From the NCBI GenBank assembly GCA_964424505.1, contig CAYRIQ010000001.1, positions 1-60,099 on the forward strand: a stretch of DNA of 60,099 nucleotides, read 5' to 3'. A program made the position numbers and the translations under genes. The notes beneath the pieces are model-generated. The model was not told the origin of the DNA. It made no database searches and saw only the letters and a list, made by a program, of their open reading frames with translations. Below, piece by piece: positions 2,145-55,381 of the stretch. The stretch comes from an uncultured Candidatus Peribacteria bacterium. GTDB taxonomy: Bacteria > Patescibacteriota > Gracilibacteria > Absconditabacterales > Absconditicoccaceae. Position 1 is the first letter of the stretch. Every line of letters starts with the position of its first letter.

Positions 2145-2273
2145 GACAGATTATATCGCTTGAAGGCGAGATTGAAGGATTGAAATATTGAAAAGTTGAA
2201 AGGTTGAAAAATGAATGTTTCCACCTTTCCGTGTTTCCACACAATCTTAGTTCTTTGGCCAATATAATCTGTC
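2145..2273. repeat. Periodic-word element H1: five tandem NNTTGAAA 8-mers, then TTTCCAC-type complementary words, enclosed by a perfect 12-bp inverted repeat
   Basis: gacagattatat (2145-2156) and atataatctgtc (2262-2273) are exact reverse complements. TTGAA recurs every 8 nt between them. Confidence 0.7.
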
Positions 2274-11478: not shown

Positions 11479-11546
11479 AAGCCCCTCTCGGCGTCTATCC
11501 CGCAAAGCGGGAATAAAGAGGGGTTAGGGGTGATGTAAAAGGGAGA
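11479..11546 (+). repeat. GC-rich palindromic element E1 (half-copy; may also terminate deoA)
   Basis: gcccctctc-ggcgtcta-tcccgcaaagcggga-ataa-agaggggt-taggggtgatg. It aligns with the 3' half of the intragenic copy at 51991-52128 read in sense. Confidence 0.7.
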
Positions 11547-12611: not shown

Positions 12612-13023
12612 ACTTATATTGTGGAAAGGTGAATATATGGAAATAGTAATTCCTCAATCTGTCCATCCTTTTCTAGTCTCTATACCACTGTTTAAATTTT
12701 TTAATTTGGGTAAGAATATGCGTATGTATTTCTCATCCATTTTTTTTTATTTTTTCAAAAGTTTTTTCAAAAACACGAGACTGATATCCATTGAGATATG
12801 ATCTTCACAAAACAACATCAATAATCCGATTATTTAGTTTTTGCTCGATATTTTGAAACATATAATATATAGTACATAAAATATTTATTTTCATAAATAC
12901 TATAAAAAAAACCTTGTAATTATCAAACCAAAAAACTAACAATAAAATTGTAATATATCTCTACGAGATGTAATTTGAACTACGTTCGTAATTCATCGTA
13001 ATTGCCAATTACGCGAATCAGAC

Positions 13024-13215
13024 AGGAGGAATCCATCCTTTTCGCTCCAGCGTCATTCCGGCAGCTTGCCCCGCAGAACTGCGTGGGTTAAGTGTTGCAG
13101 CCGGAATCCATACTACAGAAGCCAAAGAGTCTTTCAGTATGGATTCCCTCTTCCAAACATTGGCGCGGGAATGACGTCTAAGGGTTTATGGATTTCCCCT
13201 CAGGTTTAAGGGAGA
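13024..13215 (+). repeat. GC-rich composite palindromic element E2
   Basis: Nested inverted repeats: gcgtcattcc/ggaatgacg, ggaatccatact/agtatggattcc, ccgcag/ctgcg. The modules are collinear with the element at 53561-53695 read on the minus strand. Confidence 0.75.
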
Positions 13216-13252
13216 CAAACAATAAATTTTACTATTTATTATACGAATATTT

Positions 13253-15374: not shown

Positions 15375-15402
15375 CTTGCAATCGCCTTCATTTTTTCTAT
15401 AA
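15375..15402 (+). promoter_or_regulatory. Promoter-like TTGCAA-16 nt-TATAAA ahead of the rplJ leader
   Basis: Hexamers read directly. The roughly 150-nt leader contains a gtagg/cctac stem, but an L10-leader identity is not established. Confidence 0.3.
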
Positions 15403-15554
15403 AGCTGACATAAACACCCAAGACAGTAGGTTGCTCAAAGCATAAAATATCAATTCCTACCTAGGTTCACATACAGATATAATTTTTTGTATACGAGCCC
15501 TAAAAAGGTCTTTTTTGTTTTGAAAGCAATATTTAATTATTTAAGTTGTATAGT

Positions 15555-27980: not shown

Positions 27981-28053
27981 ACTTTGTTGCAAGTTAAAAC
28001 ATTAATATTTCAATCTTTCAACTTTTCAATATTTTAACATTCTAACTTTTTAA
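27981..28053. repeat. Periodic-word hairpin H4 3' of rpmA (TTTCAA/TTGAAA-type words, 8-nt period)
   Basis: atttcaatctttcaacttttcaatattttaacattctaac. TCAA recurs every 8 nt. Confidence 0.65.
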
Positions 28054-28056
28054 GTT

Positions 28057-28292: not shown

Positions 28293-28365
28293 TGCAAAAG
28301 TGGAAACATGGGAAAGTGGAAAAATTAAAAAATCTTTCAACCTTTCAATCTTTCAATGTTAGAAG
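28293..28365. repeat. Periodic-word hairpin H5 3' of rpmF (GTGGAAA words, then TTTCAAC words)
   Basis: aaagtggaaacatgggaaagtggaaaaattaaaaaatctttcaacctttcaatctttcaatg. Confidence 0.65.
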
Positions 28366-28392
28366 TTGGTCTTTAGTTTCTTAGTTTTCCAT

Positions 28393-28953
28393 ATGAATAT
28401 AAAAGCAAGAATCAATGCGAGAAAAATAGTACTTTCCTATTTATATCAGCATTGTTTTTTTGTTAATTTATTGTTGCAAGATAAAATGATTACCGAATCA
28501 TTGTTTATTGACTATATTTTTAAGACAGATGAAAATATGTATGATGAGGAAAAAGAAAAACTCAAAAAACAAATTGAAACTCATCTTGTTCTGTACACTA
28601 TAGAAGATTTCAAAAATTTTACTGATTGTTTTTTTGATGAACGAGCTGTAGAAGATATTGATTTTGATTACATCTCCAAGGTAGGCGTAAATTTTACTAA
28701 ATATATGGATGATATACAACAACAAGTAAATAGATATGCAAACACTTTTCAATATATCCAAATGGATCCGCTAGACCAAGCAATATTTCTTCTTGGGTAT
28801 ACAGAGTGGAAAGAAATGGAAACACCAAAAGAAGTATTACTCAATGAAATGATAGAACTTGCAAAAAGATACTCCGATGAAGGGGCACCTAAATTGCTCA
28901 ATGGTATCATGCACAAAATAATTGCAGCTGAAAGTCCAACGCTTGAAGCATAA
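28393..28953 (+). CDS. nusB: NusB-family transcription antitermination protein (long variant)
   Basis: ARINARKIVLSYLYQ at the N-terminus. The C-terminal part reads AIFLLGYTEW...ELAKRYSDEGAPKLLNGIMHKI. Confidence 0.65.
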   Translation: MNIKARINARKIVLSYLYQHCFFVNLLLQDKMITESLFIDYIFKTDENMYDEEKEKLKKQIETHLVLYTIEDFKNFTDCFFDERAVEDIDFDYISKVGVNFTKYMDDIQQQVNRYANTFQYIQMDPLDQAIFLLGYTEWKEMETPKEVLLNEMIELAKRYSDEGAPKLLNGIMHKIIAAESPTLEA

Positions 28954-49588: not shown

Positions 49589-50923
49589 TTATAATTTTTT
49601 TAGTAAATCAGTAATTATGCTATTGTACACGTTCATACCTGTATCTGTGAGTCTGAGTTTAGTTCCATCTCGCTCAATTAATCATTTTTTTTTATAAATA
49701 GATAACAAGGATTCGTAGGTAGGTACAAGCATAGGAATAAATTTTTTAAGATCAGCGATTCCTTCCCTAGTTCTGAGTCTGAGAAAAAATTCTTCAATTA
49801 ATATATCTGATTTATTCAGCACATGGACTTCTTTTTCATCGACTCGATGTCATTCAAGATATTGCTTGATATCTCATGTATTAGTTCGGCGAATGCCGAA
49901 GGGTTGAAGGGTTGAAGCGTTGAAATGTTGAAATGTTTTTGGATTGTTTATTATTCATTGCTGATTAAAAAATGAGCTCGCAGACAACCCCAATCCAAGA
50001 TAGTTTTCCATATTCCAGTAAATCATATTGTGTATAGATGCTTTACCTGCTGCAGCAAAATTTGAGATTTCATATCTCATAAGTCATGCATCTTCGATCA
50101 TTTCTTTCAAGAGCAAAAATTCCTCCATAATCTCTTCATCAGTTCCATAGTATGTCGGTGGATAAGTTACCTCACCCCCAACCTCTCTCCCATTTTTAGA
50201 GAGGAGTGACTTTCCTTCTCCATAGCTTGCCCCGTATATTTCACTGCGGGGTAATAGGGAGGGTGAGGGTGGGGTAGTATTGCTTAGTCCTTCTAGTGTA
50301 TATAAGGAAATACTGTCAACATATCCGCTTGCAAGAAATTTTTGAAAAAAATCACGTTTAAATTCATGTCGCAATTGTTTGAAACCATTTTTGCTGACTT
50401 GGAATTTTCCAAATGCAATAAAATCAAAATTGAAGACATTGTTTCCTTGTTTGAGTTTGATGAGTGATCTCAGAAACTCTACAATACTTCAGAAATTATA
50501 TGCTCTTCAAGCCAGTTTTAGAACTTCATCATCAAAACTTTGAATGCCAAAACTATATCTTAGTCTAGAAAGTTTTGGATATTTTTTATTCAATGTTTGT
50601 ACAAAGGTCAAAACTTCTTCTTCTGGATATGGATTTAATTCGATACTGAGTTCTGCTAAATCTTCAAGATTAAACTTGGTTTTTATGTATTCGATGATAT
50701 CAATGATCCTTGTAACTCACATTCTACTAGGTGTTCCTCATCCAAAATATAATGTTTTCAATGCTTTGTCTACCAAAGTATTTGCATAATGATCGATTTC
50801 TTTTTTCAATGCTATAATATAGTCATCGATTAAGGTATCAGAAGAATCTACTGGCATACTATTGAAGGAACAATAAGCACATTTGCTTGTACAAAAGGGA
50901 ATATGAATATAAAGACTCAACAT
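49589..50923 (-). CDS. hemW: Radical SAM heme chaperone HemW / HemN-like protein carrying two insertions
   Basis: LYIHIPFCTSKCAYCSF, YFGGGTPS, YEISNFAAAGKASIHN. One frame over 445 codons. It contains GC-rich element E3 and an 8-mer periodic tract. Confidence 0.85.
49898..49935. repeat. Periodic-word tract H7 inside the hemW CDS (four TTGAA words at 8-nt spacing)
   Basis: gaagggttgaagggttgaagcgttgaaatgttgaaatg, translated on the minus strand as ...TFQHFNASTLQPF.... Confidence 0.6.
50166..50277 (-). repeat. GC-rich palindromic element E3, in frame inside hemW
   Basis: gttacctcaccccc ... gggtgagggtggggta terminal inverted repeats with internal hairpins cctctct/agagagg and ccccg/cgggg. Read as NTTPPSPSLLPRSEIYGASYGEGKSLLSKNGREVGGEVT. 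Confidence 0.8.
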
Positions 50924-50951
50924 ATATAGTTTTAAAATGACTAAAAAATAT

Positions 50952-51830
50952 TTATTCTCTGCTTAAATCGAGACCTTCTCCGTATTCGAATTTGCCGAGT
51001 TTGAGTCAAATTTTATCTTTTTTGCAATACTGTTTATAATCGAGTACTTTTTGTTTTCTATTTTCAATCGGTTCTTTAGTCATCATACCAGGACCACCGA
51101 TACATCATCACTCACAGGCGAGGATATCAAGGAATCTGATATTTTGATTGTTCTTAAATTTTTGAAATCCTGCATCGAGATTCGCTGGACCATCAACGAC
51201 CAGTATTTGATCTTTAGTTAAAATTCATTTAATATGGAGACTATCAGCTACGCCTCATGCAAGGGGATAGACTTTGGTATAATCATTATAAAATTTATCA
51301 AAATCTGGTGTGCCATCTTCCGTCACGGAATACGTAAATTCTTTCGGTTCGATAGTATTTTCTTTGGTATAATTGAAGATATCTTGCAGTTCTTTAAATG
51401 TTATCGCAAAATCGATGCCATATTGTTTCGCTTCCATTTTCTTGGTAAAACATGGTCCGATAAAAAGTGTTTTATATTCCGGACCATACGCTTTCTTTAC
51501 AAATCTATTCATCACTACCATAGGTGACGCTACATCGATAATATATTCTTTTAGCTCTGGATATTTAAACTCAATCATTTTGACAACTGTAGGACAGTTG
51601 GGACAAATATATCTTTTATCAGGATTTTCTTTTAAGATCCTCTCATATTCCATATTGATTAATTTCGCCGCATAGGTGAGCTCTACAACCTTCTTTATAC
51701 CGATTGATTTGAGGTTAATGATGATTTCGGGATAAGAGAAATCTCCAGGAAAACTTGGTGCAAGCAAACAGACGATTTTCTCGTGTTGGAGAGCATCTAC
51801 GAGAGTCTGAAGTTCTGGAGTAAGAGACAT
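50952..51830 (-). CDS. [FeFe]-hydrogenase H-domain-like protein (minimal, no accessory ferredoxin domains)
   Basis: H-cluster-like motifs: ICPNCPTVV (degenerate motif 1), FIGPCFTKKMEA (motif 2), LDILACEGGCIGGPGM (motif 3; its two Gly are TGA). 292 aa. Confidence 0.7.
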
Positions 51831-51857
51831 AGCTAAACAATTACGTTGATAAATATA

Positions 51858-53533
51858 TTATACTGTGTATACAATTTTATCGCCAATTTCCAACTCATTT
51901 TTTTTCTCAAAAGTTCCAATGACTTGGTTTAGAGAAATCTCATCATAAATATCAATTTCCGGACAATGTAATCGTGGCCTGACGAGAAGAGTTACCTCAC
52001 CCCCGACCCCTCTCCACTCTCCCGCAGATATTGACGGGACAGGCTCCGAGAGGGGTGATTTTCCCTCTCCATAGCTTGCCCCGTATATTTCACTGCGGGG
52101 TAATGGGGAGGGATTATGGGTGGGGTAATTAATTTCCATAATATACCCGATTTCTTCTTTTCATTTCCTCGCTTCTTCTTGCTCAAGTGTTTGTCTATTT
52201 ACGAGCTGTTTTATTTTAGTAAATCTTGCTCTGATCGTAGTATATTCCACTTTTTTGTCTAATTTACTTGAAGCAGCCAAAGGCTCGTCGTGATATTCAA
52301 ACAACGCGACATTATCAAATCTTGTTTCGTTGACAAACTTCATGAGTTTATCAAAATCTTTCTCCGTTTCGCCGGGGAAACCAATGATAAGATTCGTTCT
52401 AAGAAATCTAACCGGAAATATTTTTTTAATCTGATTCAAAAAATTTTGAATATATTTTTCATCGTATGCCGAATCATTTTCGAAATCTCTAATTTCTTCA
52501 TTTCATTTGAAATTATCGTTTCTCAAATTGTCGGCATTCCTCAATCATCAAAAAGAACTGCGTTTCACTTGCTCTTTTTGCGGTTGAGGGAAAAATCTTC
52601 CCATTCTTTTCAAGACCGGCGAACTGATGTGTTGTAAAGGGATATCAAAATATGGTATAAACTTTTTCAATTTTTTTAGCTCCTCGATTTGACGTAATGT
52701 TACGATGTCGGGATACAAGTAGAGGAGTCTATAGGTGAAATCACCTTTTATTCTGTCTAATTTTTTCAATAGGTCCAATAATTTCGGCTCCCCATAAAGA
52801 TCAGTTCCATATCTCGTAGTGTCTTGTGCGATAAGAATAATTTCTTGTATTCACGCATCAATCATCTGTTGTGCTTCAGTGAGAATTTTTTCTATGGGCA
52901 AAGATTGCTGTTTTCATCTGATCGCTGGGATGATACAAAAGGTACAATGATTATCACATCATTCGGCGATTTTGAGATATTCAAATTTTTGTTCCAGGTT
53001 GGTATATACCCTTGGCGAGTTAGCAAATTCAAAATCTCCAAACGTTTTACTATCGTATCATTGCATAATATTTTTCAACGTTACTGTATTCAAATCTCCT
53101 CGTGATAAGTAATGAAGGTTTCAAAGTGGTTTTGTTACCTCACCCCTACCGCAGGCAGGCCCGGCCCCCCTCTACGGAGTGGAGATGGGTGATTTTTTAT
53201 CTCCCTCTCCATACCATGGGGAGGGATCAAGGGTGTGGTAAGACTTACTAACTTTTTATAGTACTGAACTGCACATCAGAGCAAGTATACGGTCTTCTTA
53301 GCTTTCAAAAGTTTTTTCACAGTTTCGTCAGCTTCATCTCTGCCTGAAGAAATAAATCCACAAGTATTCACAAAAACTATTTTAGTTTTCGGATCAAAAG
53401 GATCGGTAAAATAGTTCAATTGATAGTCAGGAGTCTTGATACTTATATCAAAAAGTCTACCAAGAAAATATTGGCTATCGACCAGATTTTTGGTGCATCA
53501 GAGGTTGATGAGTGAAAAATTTAGTTGTTGCAT
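51858..53533 (-). CDS. rimO: Ribosomal protein S12 methylthiotransferase RimO, interrupted: carries two GC-rich elements and a frame break in one of them
   Basis: The N-terminal frame (MQQLNFSLINLGCTKNLVDSQ...) stops at TAA 53135 inside element E5. The rest ([35 protein letters not shown], TRAM tail) is in another frame, open from 53171 to TAA 51858. Confidence 0.8.
51991..52128 (-). repeat. GC-rich palindromic element E4, in frame inside the rimO TRAM region
   Basis: About 85 percent identical by eye to E3, plus an extra tcccg...gcggga hairpin. Read as YPTHNPSPLPRSEIYGASYGEGKSPLSEPVPSISAGEWRGVGGEVT. Confidence 0.8.
53134..53241 (-). repeat. GC-rich palindromic element E5 in the rimO inter-domain linker, coincident with the frame break
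   Basis: Same termini (gttacctcacccc ... gggtgtggtaag). It lacks the 30-nt ccccg hairpin module and contains a C6/G6 run at 53165-53170. Confidence 0.8.
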
Positions 53534-53560
53534 ATATTACAAAAAAACAATAATTAAAAT

Positions 53561-53695
53561 AAACAAATCCTCACTCTCCCCACTTTAGCGTCATTCCCGA
53601 CTTGATCGAGAATCCAAGCTCAATAGTATGGATTCCCATTTTCATGGGAATGACGCCGAGACGGGGAGGGTTGTCAAGGGTCGGGTGAGTTTGTT
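53561..53695 (-). repeat. GC-rich palindromic element E6 between uvrB and rimO
   Basis: cctcactctcccc ... gggtcgggtgag termini. Inner gcgtcattccc/gggaatgacgc and gaatcca/tggattc stems shared with E2. Confidence 0.75.
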
Positions 53696-53714
53696 AAAAA
53701 AATTAAAATAAAAA

Positions 53715-55268
53715 TTATTCGTTGCTAAACACTTCTTCTATACCGTCTTTCAAGCTATATCACTCCATAAATTCTTTCAGGTGTGGTTTTTTTTTGATCA
53801 ACGTATCTATACTAAGGATGAGCGAATCATAATCTCAGGACTTGGGATAGACATAGGTAATCGGATCTAAAAGGCCAGTCGGTCTGATGATTTGCTCGAC
53901 GATCTTATCAGACAATTTCAGTTCATATTCACTAGGAGTTGCTGATAAAAAAATAGATTTCGTATCTTTTTTATGCTTTTTAACCAAAGTAATTAACTGA
54001 TTTTCTCCACGTGCTTCTTTCATTTTTTTATACATATTGAAAATTTCCACATGAGTGTTTGATACATTTGAACTGATATCAAAGGCTTGATCGAGAACAA
54101 TATCATTGATATCTTTCCATCATAAAATTCCCTCTAGCTCCTCAAATCTCAATGGTCTATGATCTACCGCTGAAGGAAGTCTAAATCCATATTTTATCAG
54201 ATTTGCTTTTCTTGATCTATCACCTCCAGGCATTGCTCTCAACTGTGGTAAGGTCATATGTGATTCATCGATAATCAATAAGAAATCATCGGGAAAATAG
54301 TCAAAAATAGTATTTGGTGGTTCTCATGGCAATCTATTATCAAAGTAGAGAGAATAGTTTTCGATACCGTTTACGAATCACGTCTCCTTGATCATTCTGA
54401 TATCATATTCCACTCTTTTTTTGATTCTCTCTGCCTCCACCAACATTCATTGTTTTTCAAATTCTTTTACTCTAAGCTCTTTTTCTGCATTCATTTGTTC
54501 CAAGATAGTATCTATATCAGAAATATCTTGCAAAAACTGCGTCGCTGGTCGGAGCGTTACTTTATTTTTATTTTCTTTATGTTCAAAAGTCAGTGAGTCT
54601 TTGAGTTCAATCAATTCAAGGGTTTCTTCATTGAAATGTAATCTATAGACAAATTTCTCTGTACTGGAAAAAATATCCAGAATATCTCCTTTAAATTCAA
54701 ACATTCCATGTTCTATCTTAGCAAGGATAGGTTTGTATTGCATATGGAGGAGCTGTTTTTTGAGCTCTTTAAATATATATTGTTTCCCGACTTCAAATTG
54801 CAAACAGTTTTCTTCAAAAAATCTTTTTTGTCAGAGTCCATAAAGTGAAGAAGCTGAAGCGACAACAATTACGTCTTTTCTAGTCAATAATGATGCCATA
54901 GTTGCAAGTCTATACATTTCGATCTCTTGGTTGATAGTTGCCTCTTTTTCTATGTATACTCATTGAGCAGGGAGATAGCTTTCTGGTTGATAATAATCAA
55001 AATACGAGACAAAATAATGTACAGCATTATTCGGAAAAAAATATTTGAATTCTGTAGCAAGTTGTGCAGCAAGGGTCTTATTATGCGAGATGATAAGTGT
55101 TGGTTTTTGAAGATGTTGAATCATATTTGCCATCGTAAAGGTCTTTCCAGTTCCTGTAGCTCAGAGGAGAGTAGCCTTATTTTTTCCACTGGCAAAAAGC
55201 ATTTTTATCTCCTCAATAGCTTTGATTTGATCTCCAGCTGGTTTATATGATGATTGTAGTTGAAACAT
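53715..55268 (-). CDS. uvrB: UvrB N-terminal portion only (ends just after the RPTGLLDP motif); C-terminal helicase domain and UVR domain absent
   Basis: [12 protein letters not shown] (Gly=TGA), [57 protein letters not shown], then about 40 unrelated residues and TAA 53715. The frame was checked codon by codon. Confidence 0.8.
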
Positions 55269-55381
55269 ATGAAGCATATATAATATAAATGAGTATACCT
55301 TATAGAGTTTTTTTTATAAAAATCCACCAGTAACTGAAATAAATTACTCTATTCTATGTAAAAAATTGTTACAATTGCGAC

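What the first reader, a model, noticed from the sequence alone, without database searches (positions are those of the whole stretch)
53134..53241. Element E5 coincides with a frame break that splits rimO
The N-terminal rimO frame enters E5 and stops at TAA 53135, a stop created by the element's own terminal GGTAAC. The radical-SAM/TRAM part is in another frame that is open only from 53171. The third frame is closed. The downstream frame reads the element end as G-E-V-T, exactly as in E3 and E4. A one-base length change in the overlap (53138-53171), which contains a C6/G6 run at 53165-53170, would fuse the two parts. The possibilities are a homopolymer assembly error, phase variation or -1 frameshifting, a split RimO, or a pseudogene.
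Basis: seen in the sequence. Interest (0 to 1): 0.65.

Follow-up and report, generated by a model that had tools for sequence, protein, structure and literature searches.

The report
Four-base deletion splits rimO inside element
The break in the rimO gene is real in this sequence, but it comes from a four-base deletion inside a small palindromic insert that a 99.93%-identical genome (over the 18 kb compared) reads straight through. It is therefore an ordinary recent frameshift (or an assembly variant), not a programmed signal; the insert family itself is the more interesting part.

Summary
The window comes from an SR1/Absconditabacteria genome in which UGA codes for Gly. On the minus strand, the rimO N-terminal frame runs through E5 and stops at TAA 53137-53135. 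The radical-SAM/TRAM frame is open only from 53171, and the third frame is closed.

The cause is not the G6 run. A public contig that is 99.93% identical over 18.2 kb (L005) carries an intact 559-aa RimO. Its only difference within rimO is four extra bases (CAGG), which complete a perfect 19-nt mini-hairpin nested in E5. The window has lost those four bases, at about 53144-53148.

More distant relatives also read an E5-type element in frame at the same site. The spacing between conserved anchors at this site is a multiple of three in 28 of 28 other loci.

E3, E4 and E5 are miniature derivatives of an element that carries a DUF559 (Vsr-like/EDxHD) endonuclease gene. In relatives that element sits in frame in rimO, hemW and leuS.

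Verdict: a recent strain-specific frameshift that inactivates or splits rimO is most likely, and an assembly artefact is possible. Programmed frameshifting and phase variation are unsupported. The break itself is ordinary. The family of elements translated in frame is the notable by-product.

The parts
53135..53240 (-). Element E5: a GC-rich nested palindrome, measured from one terminal inverted repeat to the other. It sits in the linker between the UPF0004 and radical-SAM domains of rimO.
   Evidence: The same element at the same site is read in frame in L005, L001/L002/L019 and L003/L004.
53230..53240 (-). Left terminal repeat in mRNA sense (TTACCACACCC), read as ..T-T-P.
53135..53145 (-). 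Right terminal repeat (GGGTGAGGTAA). In the correct frame it reads G-E-V. In the shifted N frame its TAA (53137-53135) is the stop codon.
53145..53159 (-). Truncated nested mini-hairpin, with 15 of 19 nt left (CCTGCCTGCGGTAGG). The 4-bp deletion junction (CAGG in mRNA sense) lies within 53144-53148. Its exact position is ambiguous because of the 3-nt direct repeat AGG..AGG.
   Evidence: L005 has CCTGCCTGCGGTAGGCAGGGGTGAGG and the window has CCTGCCTGCGGTAGG----GGTGAGG. Fold. An exact 19-mer is also found in L009.
53165..53170 (-). G6 run in mRNA sense. It is identical in the intact allele, so it is not the lesion.
53172..53174 (-). TAG that closes the C-terminal frame on its upstream side. It lies in a frame that the intact allele does not use. 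More distant relatives have TGG here.
53135..53533 (-). rimO N-terminal ORF of 132 aa: the UPF0004 domain plus 37 residues derived from the element. It ends at TAA.
   Evidence: P0122.
51858..53171 (-). rimO C-terminal open frame holding the radical-SAM [8 protein letters not shown] motif and the TRAM domain. The first plausible restart codons are TTG 53093, TTG 53078 and ATG 53066. The annotated product of 402 aa is P0002.
51993..52127 (-). Element E4, of the same family, in frame in the TRAM domain of rimO.
50168..50276 (-). Element E3, of the same family, in frame in the hemW-like radical-SAM gene (49589..50962).
   Evidence: The orthologous site in L001 carries the DUF559 version.
52473..52592 (-). 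A third in-frame insert in rimO (site 2). It is an AT-rich double palindrome present only in some orthologs. Coordinates are approximate.

Best explanation
E5 is a non-autonomous, GC-rich nested-palindrome element. It is a miniature derivative of an element that carries a DUF559/Vsr-like endonuclease gene. It sits in the interdomain linker of rimO and is normally translated in frame as a disordered loop.

In this genome the copy has lost 4 bp (CAGG in mRNA sense). The lost bases lie between 3-nt direct repeats in the 3' arm of a 19-nt mini-hairpin nested inside E5. The most likely cause is replication slippage at the hairpin. The -4 (that is, -1) shift makes the N-terminal frame run into the TAA of the element's own terminal repeat and leaves the radical-SAM/TRAM part out of frame.

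This is a very recent, strain-specific frameshift that inactivates rimO or at best splits it.

Shown: the 4-bp difference, the intact allele, and the in-frame status in relatives. Inferred: that the deletion is a real mutation rather than an artefact, the slippage mechanism, and the loss of function.
For: - Intact allele. P0121 on L005 is an intact 559-aa RimO on a contig 99.93% identical to the window over 18,248 bp (5 SNPs and 2 four-base indels). The only difference within rimO is the CAGG indel, and the G6 run is identical.
- Hairpin; the intact version forms a perfect 7-bp mini-hairpin, which the window copy has lost.
- Relatives in frame; orthologs P0001, P0003 and P0012 read an E5-type element in frame at the same site.
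- Spacing at site 1; the CAVQYY..HYLSR spacing is in frame in 28 of 28 other loci (54-177 nt). The window, at 161 nt, is the only exception.
- Spacing at site 3; the spacing is in frame in all loci (36-540 nt).
- Element lengths; the intact E5-type copies are 91, 133 and 109 nt, all equal to 1 mod 3. The window copy is 105 nt.
- Structure. AlphaFold of the intact allele gives low-confidence coil exactly at residues 98-136 (E5), with the RimO domains folded.
- Assembly quality. There are no single-base homopolymer indels anywhere in the 18 kb compared, which argues for two good assemblies.
Against: No reads are available, so the deletion could be an assembly or consensus variant or a minority allele.

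Only one contig carries each allele.

The rest of rimO shows no further decay. That fits a very recent event, but it also fits an artefact or a tolerated split gene.
Confidence: 0.68

Rival explanations
1. Assembly or consensus artefact. The organism really has the intact 19-nt hairpin, and the 4-bp gap arose during assembly or polishing, or by picking a minority variant across a GC-rich hairpin in an AT-rich genome.
For: The difference lies inside a perfect hairpin, where coverage and read quality often drop (general knowledge). The intact allele exists in an almost identical contig. Each allele is seen on one contig only.
Against: It is a clean 4-bp indel outside any homopolymer. The only other indel in 18 kb is an ATAT microsatellite unit. 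No 1-bp homopolymer errors occur despite many A/T runs. A 19-nt hairpin is shorter than the usual assembly k-mers.
Confidence: 0.2
2. A split but functional RimO. The 132-aa UPF0004 fragment and a radical-SAM/TRAM fragment of about 402 aa, restarted at ATG 53066, are both made and assemble non-covalently.
For: The break falls exactly in a linker that tolerates inserts of 0-41 extra residues and is predicted to be disordered. Both halves keep all their motifs. In-frame start codons exist.
Against: No Shine-Dalgarno sequence lies at a proper distance before the candidate starts, and the stop and restart are about 70 nt apart (sequence). None of the 28 other loci that cover this junction is split there. 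The state is only as old as a 0.07% divergence.
Confidence: 0.06
3. Programmed -1 ribosomal frameshifting, transcriptional slippage or phase variation at the G6 run restores full-length RimO.
For: The needed shift is -1. A G6 run lies in the overlap, followed by GC-rich structure.
Against: - There is no X XXY YYZ heptamer in the zero frame. A GGG GGG re-pairs only in the A site (sequence).
- G6 is too short for known slippage or contingency tracts (general knowledge).
- The same G6 is present in the intact allele, where no shift is needed.
- All relatives are simply in frame.
- The lesion is a 4-bp deletion, not a change in tract length.
Confidence: 0.03
4. The element is removed or bypassed, either by splicing at the RNA level or by translational hopping as in T4 gene 60 or the yeast mitochondrial byp elements. 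Its internal frame would then be irrelevant.
For: The elements are strongly structured (z = -3 to -8). GC-rich hairpin inserts in AT-rich genomes are bypassed in Magnusiomyces mitochondria (my own knowledge).
Against: - Every other copy in a coding region keeps the host frame through the element despite very different lengths (87-540 nt) and nested hairpins.
- Only one reading frame of the element is free of stops, and it is the one used.
- Elements bounded by the terminal repeats are 0 mod 3 at some sites and 1 mod 3 at others. This is not expected for excision at fixed boundaries.
- There is no Rfam match.
- No intein domains are recorded in the precomputed Pfam lists of element-bearing orthologs.
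Confidence: 0.03

Closest known systems
Rickettsia palindromic elements (RPEs): MITE-like repeats inserted in frame in protein-coding genes
   Same: Short palindromic non-autonomous repeats (about 90-135 nt here). They are inserted in unrelated housekeeping genes and read through in the one open frame. They add a peptide in a surface loop without destroying the fold (RPE description in PMC10969869).
   Different: The phylum differs (SR1, code 25) and no sequence relation was tested. These elements are GC-rich in an AT-rich genome and are built of nested mini-hairpins. They share termini and insertion sites with longer copies that encode a DUF559 endonuclease. No such autonomous partner is described for RPEs in the review read.
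EDxHD / Vsr-like (DUF559) homing endonucleases, such as I-Bth0305I, and the 'fractured genes' of Dassa et al. 2009
   Same: The long versions of the element carry a full DUF559 domain (E = 1.5e-30). They occupy fixed sites in conserved genes, with presence/absence polymorphism among relatives, as homing endonuclease genes do (PMC3239194, PMC2677866, PMC9403480).
   Different: Known members sit in group I introns, in inteins, or between split-intein halves. Here there is no intron or intein: the ORF is fused in frame to the host protein on both sides. E5 itself has no endonuclease ORF, and none was found in the 60-kb window.
GC clusters / byp elements of yeast mitochondria (my own knowledge, not checked in the papers read)
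   Same: Small mobile GC-rich hairpins that invade AT-rich genomes, including coding regions, and nest within each other. The 19-nt mini-hairpin of E5 recurs exactly in an intergenic hairpin cluster of another SR1 genome.
   Different: Byp elements are skipped by the ribosome. Here the evidence favours read-through translation. The host is a bacterium, not an organelle.
Programmed -1 frameshift sites (for example dnaX and IS element transposases)
   Same: Two overlapping frames that need a -1 shift, with a G-rich run and structure in the overlap.
   Different: There is no slippery heptamer and no conservation. The state is a 4-bp deletion away from an in-frame allele.

Membership tests
RimO (MiaB/RimO radical-SAM methylthiotransferase) | N-terminal UPF0004 domain with three conserved Cys, a radical-SAM CxxxCxxC motif, a C-terminal TRAM domain, and similarity to characterised RimO | tested here: met
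   Pfam PF00919 and PF04055 on the intact allele. T. maritima RimO 4JC0 at E = 5e-48. CDNHCTFC and the Cys of NLGC, NTCG and LGCA are present. Orthologs are named MiaB/RimO or S12 methylthiotransferase. In the window the gene is broken into two frames.
In-frame MITE-like palindromic element (RPE-like kind) | A short non-autonomous repeat with terminal inverted repeats, in several copies, inserted inside ORFs and keeping the host frame | tested here: met
   Terminal repeats TTACC(C/A)CACCC / GGGTGAGGTAA. Three copies within 3.2 kb plus a solo end at 11481-11538. Intact alleles keep the frame at all sites. The window's E5 is the single exception, through a 4-bp deletion.
In-frame MITE-like palindromic element (RPE-like kind) | Sequence homology to the Rickettsia RPE families themselves | not tested
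   No RPE sequences were compared. The claim is only 'works like', not membership.
DUF559 / EDxHD homing-endonuclease element | Encodes a DUF559 (PF04480) nuclease | tested here: not met
   E5, E4 and E3 have no such ORF, and tblastn of the window finds none. Copies of 468-510 nt at the same sites in relatives do carry it, so E5 is at most a deletion derivative.
DUF559 / EDxHD homing-endonuclease element | Shares termini and insertion site with endonuclease-bearing copies | tested here: met
   L020 and L003 (468 and 510 nt) have the same roughly 45-nt ends as the 87-135 nt copies at the rimO TRAM site. L001 hemW carries DUF559 at the E3 site. No DUF559-bearing copy was seen at the E5 site itself.
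DUF559 / EDxHD homing-endonuclease element | Site-specific cleavage of the empty allele and homing | not testable with these tools
   Only presence/absence polymorphism at fixed sites is seen.
Programmed -1 ribosomal frameshift site | Slippery heptamer X XXY YYZ in the zero frame within the overlap | tested here: not met
   The zero-frame codons CGT AGA GGG GGG CCG GGC CTG CCT GCG GTA GGG GTG AGG TAA contain no such heptamer.
Programmed -1 ribosomal frameshift site | The two-frame arrangement is conserved in relatives | tested here: not met
   28 of 28 other loci have a single continuous frame, including a 99.93%-identical genome.
Phase-variable simple-sequence contingency locus | A long homopolymer or multi-unit tandem repeat whose unit number changes between strains | tested here: not met
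   The G6 run is unchanged between alleles. The indel removes one of two imperfect AGGC/AGGG units.
Intein | Hint domain with splice-junction residues (C/S/T at position 1, HN followed by C/S/T at the end) | tested here: not met
   The inserts begin ..TTP/YPT and end GGEVT|L/K/N. No intein or Hint Pfam domains are listed for element-bearing orthologs.
Known structured RNA family (Rfam) | Match to a curated covariance model | tested here: not met
   The gathering scan of the window finds only the L10 leader. The permissive scan of 49900-53900 finds nothing on the elements.

The most novel reading that the evidence does not exclude
E5 is the decayed end-member of a mobile-element family that I did not find described. 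The family consists of DUF559 (EDxHD/Vsr-like) homing-type endonuclease genes bounded by conserved GC-rich inverted repeats.

These elements live 'naked', without an intron or intein, inside conserved genes, as in-frame fusions translated into disordered loops. The hosts seen are rimO at two sites, hemW, leuS and a rumA-like gene in code-25 SR1 bacteria, and leuS in a standard-code lineage. The elements then shrink to 90-135-nt palindromic miniatures that keep accreting mini-hairpins.

The rimO break would then be one visible cost of carrying such indel-prone passengers.
Probability: 0.5. Interest if true: 0.72.

Novelty: new variant of a known kind. Interest (0 to 1): 0.38.

Why it matters
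For the finding as posed, the result is deflationary. A suspected recoding or phase-variation site turns out to be a 4-bp deletion that a sister genome lacks. rimO in this strain should therefore be annotated as frameshifted (or the assembly checked), not as a programmed frameshift.

The wider value is twofold.

First, annotators of SR1/Absconditabacteria should expect GC-rich palindromic inserts that are translated in frame, and should not treat them as errors or introns.

Second, the elements link Rickettsia-type in-frame MITEs to a homing-endonuclease family. This suggests a third way, besides introns and inteins, for such nucleases to persist inside essential genes. It also points to a source of loop insertions and occasional gene loss in reduced genomes.

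Tried and rejected
- G6/G7 homopolymer error: rejected, because the run is identical in the intact allele.
- Table-11 ORF calls: useless here, because UGA is a sense codon. Everything was redone with code 25.
- Rfam, gathering and permissive thresholds: no family on the elements.
- Intein reading: no junction residues or Hint domain.
- Autonomous DUF559 copy in the window: none found.
- Extending the strain comparison beyond 18 kb: failed. A UGA-free ORF (28393-28950) was not on record. The look-up of P0002 gave nothing, and P0012 had no DNA.
- Literature searches by sequence strings and by topic: no description of these elements found. That is absence in the searched library only.
- UvrB C-terminal part elsewhere in the window: not found.
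- The 25-mer terminus was expected to be specific to SR1. It is not: it occurs in contigs of 27-71% GC.

Full report
**Context and genetic code.** The window is 31.6% GC. With table 11 every long gene is fragmented. When TGA is treated as sense, rpoB (1238 codons), rpoC (1286 codons) and most other genes become continuous. TGA falls where Gly is conserved, for example in the radical-SAM '[11 protein letters not shown]' motif and the UvrB 'GATGTGKT' motif. Protein searches place the locus in candidate division SR1/Absconditabacteria. All frames below use code 25.

**Check of the observation.** rimO is on the minus strand.
- The N-terminal ORF runs from ATG 53533 to TAA 53137-53135 and is 132 aa long. 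It reads through all of E5 and stops in the element's terminal GGTAAC.
- The radical-SAM/TRAM frame is closed by TAG 53174-53172 and open from 53171 to the stop at 51858.
- The third frame has several stops.
- The C frame is the N frame minus one, so a net +1 base in 53138-53171 would fuse the two parts.
- A G6 run in mRNA sense lies at 53165-53170.
- The C frame reads the end of the element as G-E-V-T, exactly as in E4 (51993-52127, in the rimO TRAM domain) and E3 (50168-50276, in a hemW-like gene).

**What E5 is.**
- E3, E4 and E5 share the termini TTACC(C/A)CACCC...GGGTGAGGTAA and an inner CCCTCCCC/GGAGAGGG stem.
- They differ by optional internal hairpins.
- They fold as nested hairpins with z-scores of -3 to -8.
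- They match no Rfam family.
- Only one reading frame of the element is free of stops. It is the frame used in every coding copy.

**The decisive comparison.**
- The cluster look-up found P0121, a 559-aa protein from JGI metagenome 3300020048. Its contig (L005) is 99.93% identical to the window over 18,248 bp, with 5 SNPs and two 4-bp indels.
- P0121 is an intact RimO that reads straight through E5 as ...HPSPLRRGGPGLPAVGRGEVTKPLGNLHYLSR.
- The only difference within rimO is CCTGCCTGCGGTAGGCAGGGGTGAGG in L005 versus CCTGCCTGCGGTAGG----GGTGAGG in the window.
- The four bases complete a perfect 7-bp-stem, 19-nt mini-hairpin (CCTGCCT-gcggt-AGGCAGG).
- The deletion is flanked by the direct repeat AGG..AGG, as expected for slippage at a hairpin. 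That mechanism is an inference.
- The G6 run is identical in both alleles, so the proposed G6/G7 lesion is refuted.
- The second indel between the strains is an ATAT unit just after the rimO stop.
- No single-base homopolymer indel occurs anywhere in the 18 kb. This argues that both assemblies are accurate and that the indels are real strain differences. Without reads, however, an artefact cannot be excluded.

**Is the element translated?**
- More distant orthologs (74-79% aa identity: P0003 on L001/L002/L019, P0001 on L003/L004, and P0012) have an E5-type element at the same site inside single ORFs.
- The distance between the anchors CAVQYY and HYLSR is 54 nt when the site is empty and 63-177 nt otherwise. 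It is in frame in 28 of 28 other loci. The window, at 161 nt, is the only exception.
- At the TRAM site the spacing ranges from 36 to 540 nt and is always in frame.
- Relative to L001 and L003, the window/L005 lineage carries the 19-nt hairpin (+19) and a loop that is 1 nt shorter upstream (-1). The net change is +18, so the stretch between them is read in a different frame, yet the host frame is preserved (sequence). That is what selection on a translated insert predicts. It is not what removal at the RNA level or ribosomal bypass predicts.
- AlphaFold of the intact allele folds the RimO domains. It leaves low-confidence coil exactly at residues 98-136 (E5), 316-355 (a third insert) and 475-512 (E4).

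**Origin of the family.**
- At the E4 site, relatives L003/L004, L020 and L130 carry 468-510-nt versions with the same roughly 45-nt ends. These enclose a complete DUF559 domain (PF04480, E = 1.5e-30) fused in frame to RimO on both sides.
- L001 has the same at the E3 site of hemW.
- DUF559 belongs to the EDxHD/Vsr-like homing-endonuclease family (PMC3239194, PMC2677866, PMC9403480, PMC3424549).
- The short elements are therefore MITE-like deletion derivatives. No DUF559 gene is present in the window.
- A metagenome scan with the 25-nt terminus found 56 contigs of 27-71% GC.
  - In high-GC contigs it is mostly an intergenic hairpin, or it flanks stand-alone DUF559 genes (L126).
  - In code-25 contigs it is in frame in rimO, hemW, leuS (L086, L107, L121) and a rumA-like gene (L114, L119).
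  - In standard-code contigs a DUF559 insert sits in the same leuS loop (L081, L116).
- The 19-nt mini-hairpin recurs exactly in an intergenic hairpin cluster of another SR1 genome (L009).
- I found no description of these elements in the searched literature.
- The closest analogue for in-frame MITEs is the Rickettsia palindromic element (PMC10969869).

**Rivals for the frame break.**
- *Programmed -1 frameshifting or phase variation.* There is no X XXY YYZ heptamer in the overlap, no repeat tract changes between alleles, and relatives are simply in frame. Probability about 3%.
- *Bypass or splicing.* Contradicted by the frame conservation above. About 3%.
- *Functional split RimO.* Conceivable, because the break lies in a permissive disordered linker. 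However, there is no proper ribosome-binding site before the candidate restarts at 53093, 53078 and 53066, and none of the other 28 loci covering this junction is split there. About 6%.
- *Assembly or consensus artefact.* About 20%.
- *Real, recent frameshift that inactivates rimO.* Best supported, at about 68%. RimO is dispensable in E. coli, from my own knowledge.

**Verdict.** It is not a recoding signal. The by-product is of moderate to high interest: an in-frame, endonuclease-derived element family in SR1 and beyond. It deserves its own follow-up.

Noticed in passing
whole window: UGA is a sense codon (Gly, code 25), and the organism is candidate division SR1/Absconditabacteria. Table-11 ORF lists fragment nearly every gene.
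   Followed up: yes
window 52473-52592 (-): A third in-frame insert in rimO reads 'PQPQKEQVKRSSFGGLRNADNLRNDNFKGNEEIRDFENDS'. It is made of two AT-rich palindromes, is present only in some orthologs, and is predicted to be disordered.
   Followed up: partly
L003:2274-2783, L020:11177-11644, L130, L001:5973-7551, L086/L107/L121: Versions of the E3/E4-type element that are 468-510 nt long carry a complete DUF559 (Vsr-like/EDxHD) endonuclease domain fused in frame to RimO, HemW and LeuRS. The short elements look like their miniature derivatives.
   Followed up: partly
L081, L116 (standard code, GC 0.30-0.32); L101: Organisms with no in-frame TGA also carry an in-frame DUF559 insert, in the same LeuRS loop at the border of the CP1 editing domain. 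L101 has a short solo hairpin in frame near the N-terminus of an Ile/Val-tRNA synthetase.
   Followed up: partly
L076-L131: The exact 25-nt terminus GGAGAGGGGYYGGGGGTGAGGTAAC occurs in contigs from 27% to 71% GC. It is often an intergenic hairpin CCCCTCTCC-n-GGAGAGGGG, or it flanks stand-alone DUF559 genes (L126). The terminal repeat is therefore conserved far beyond SR1.
   Followed up: partly
L009:8225-8243: The 19-nt mini-hairpin nested in E5 (CCTGCCTGCGGTAGGCAGG) recurs exactly in an intergenic cluster of GC-rich hairpins in a different SR1 genome. This suggests that the mini-hairpins are themselves repeated units.
   Followed up: partly
window 53715-55313 (-) and 53565-53695: uvrB lacks its C-terminal helicase/UVR part, both in the window and in L005, and no match to that part was found in the window. 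The gene ends next to palindromic element E6 of another family (GCGTCATTCC...GGAATGACGC), which is also present at 13001-13221. In relatives nusA, not uvrB, precedes rimO.
   Followed up: partly
window 11481-11538 (+): An intergenic solo hairpin (CCCCTCTC...AGAGGGGTTAGGGGTGATGTAA) resembles the right end of the E3-E5 family, with 3 mismatches to the terminus.
   Followed up: partly
rimO site 1 in L006-L063: The linker that hosts E5 is hypervariable across SR1 (54-177 nt). It holds other recurrent inserts such as 'GARSKEQEPATGNLQP', which may belong to further element families.
   Followed up: no
window 51853-51856: The only other indel between the window and the near-identical contig L005 is an extra ATAT directly after the rimO stop codon.
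   Followed up: yes
window 2180-2220, 27997-28056, 28331-28367: Repeated TTTCAAC-type motifs (AATCTTTCAACTTTTCAATATTTTAAC) occur in direct and inverted orientation in intergenic regions.
   Followed up: no
window 15399-15525 (+): An Rfam L10 leader (RF00557, 49.5 bits) is the only curated RNA family found in the window.
   Followed up: no
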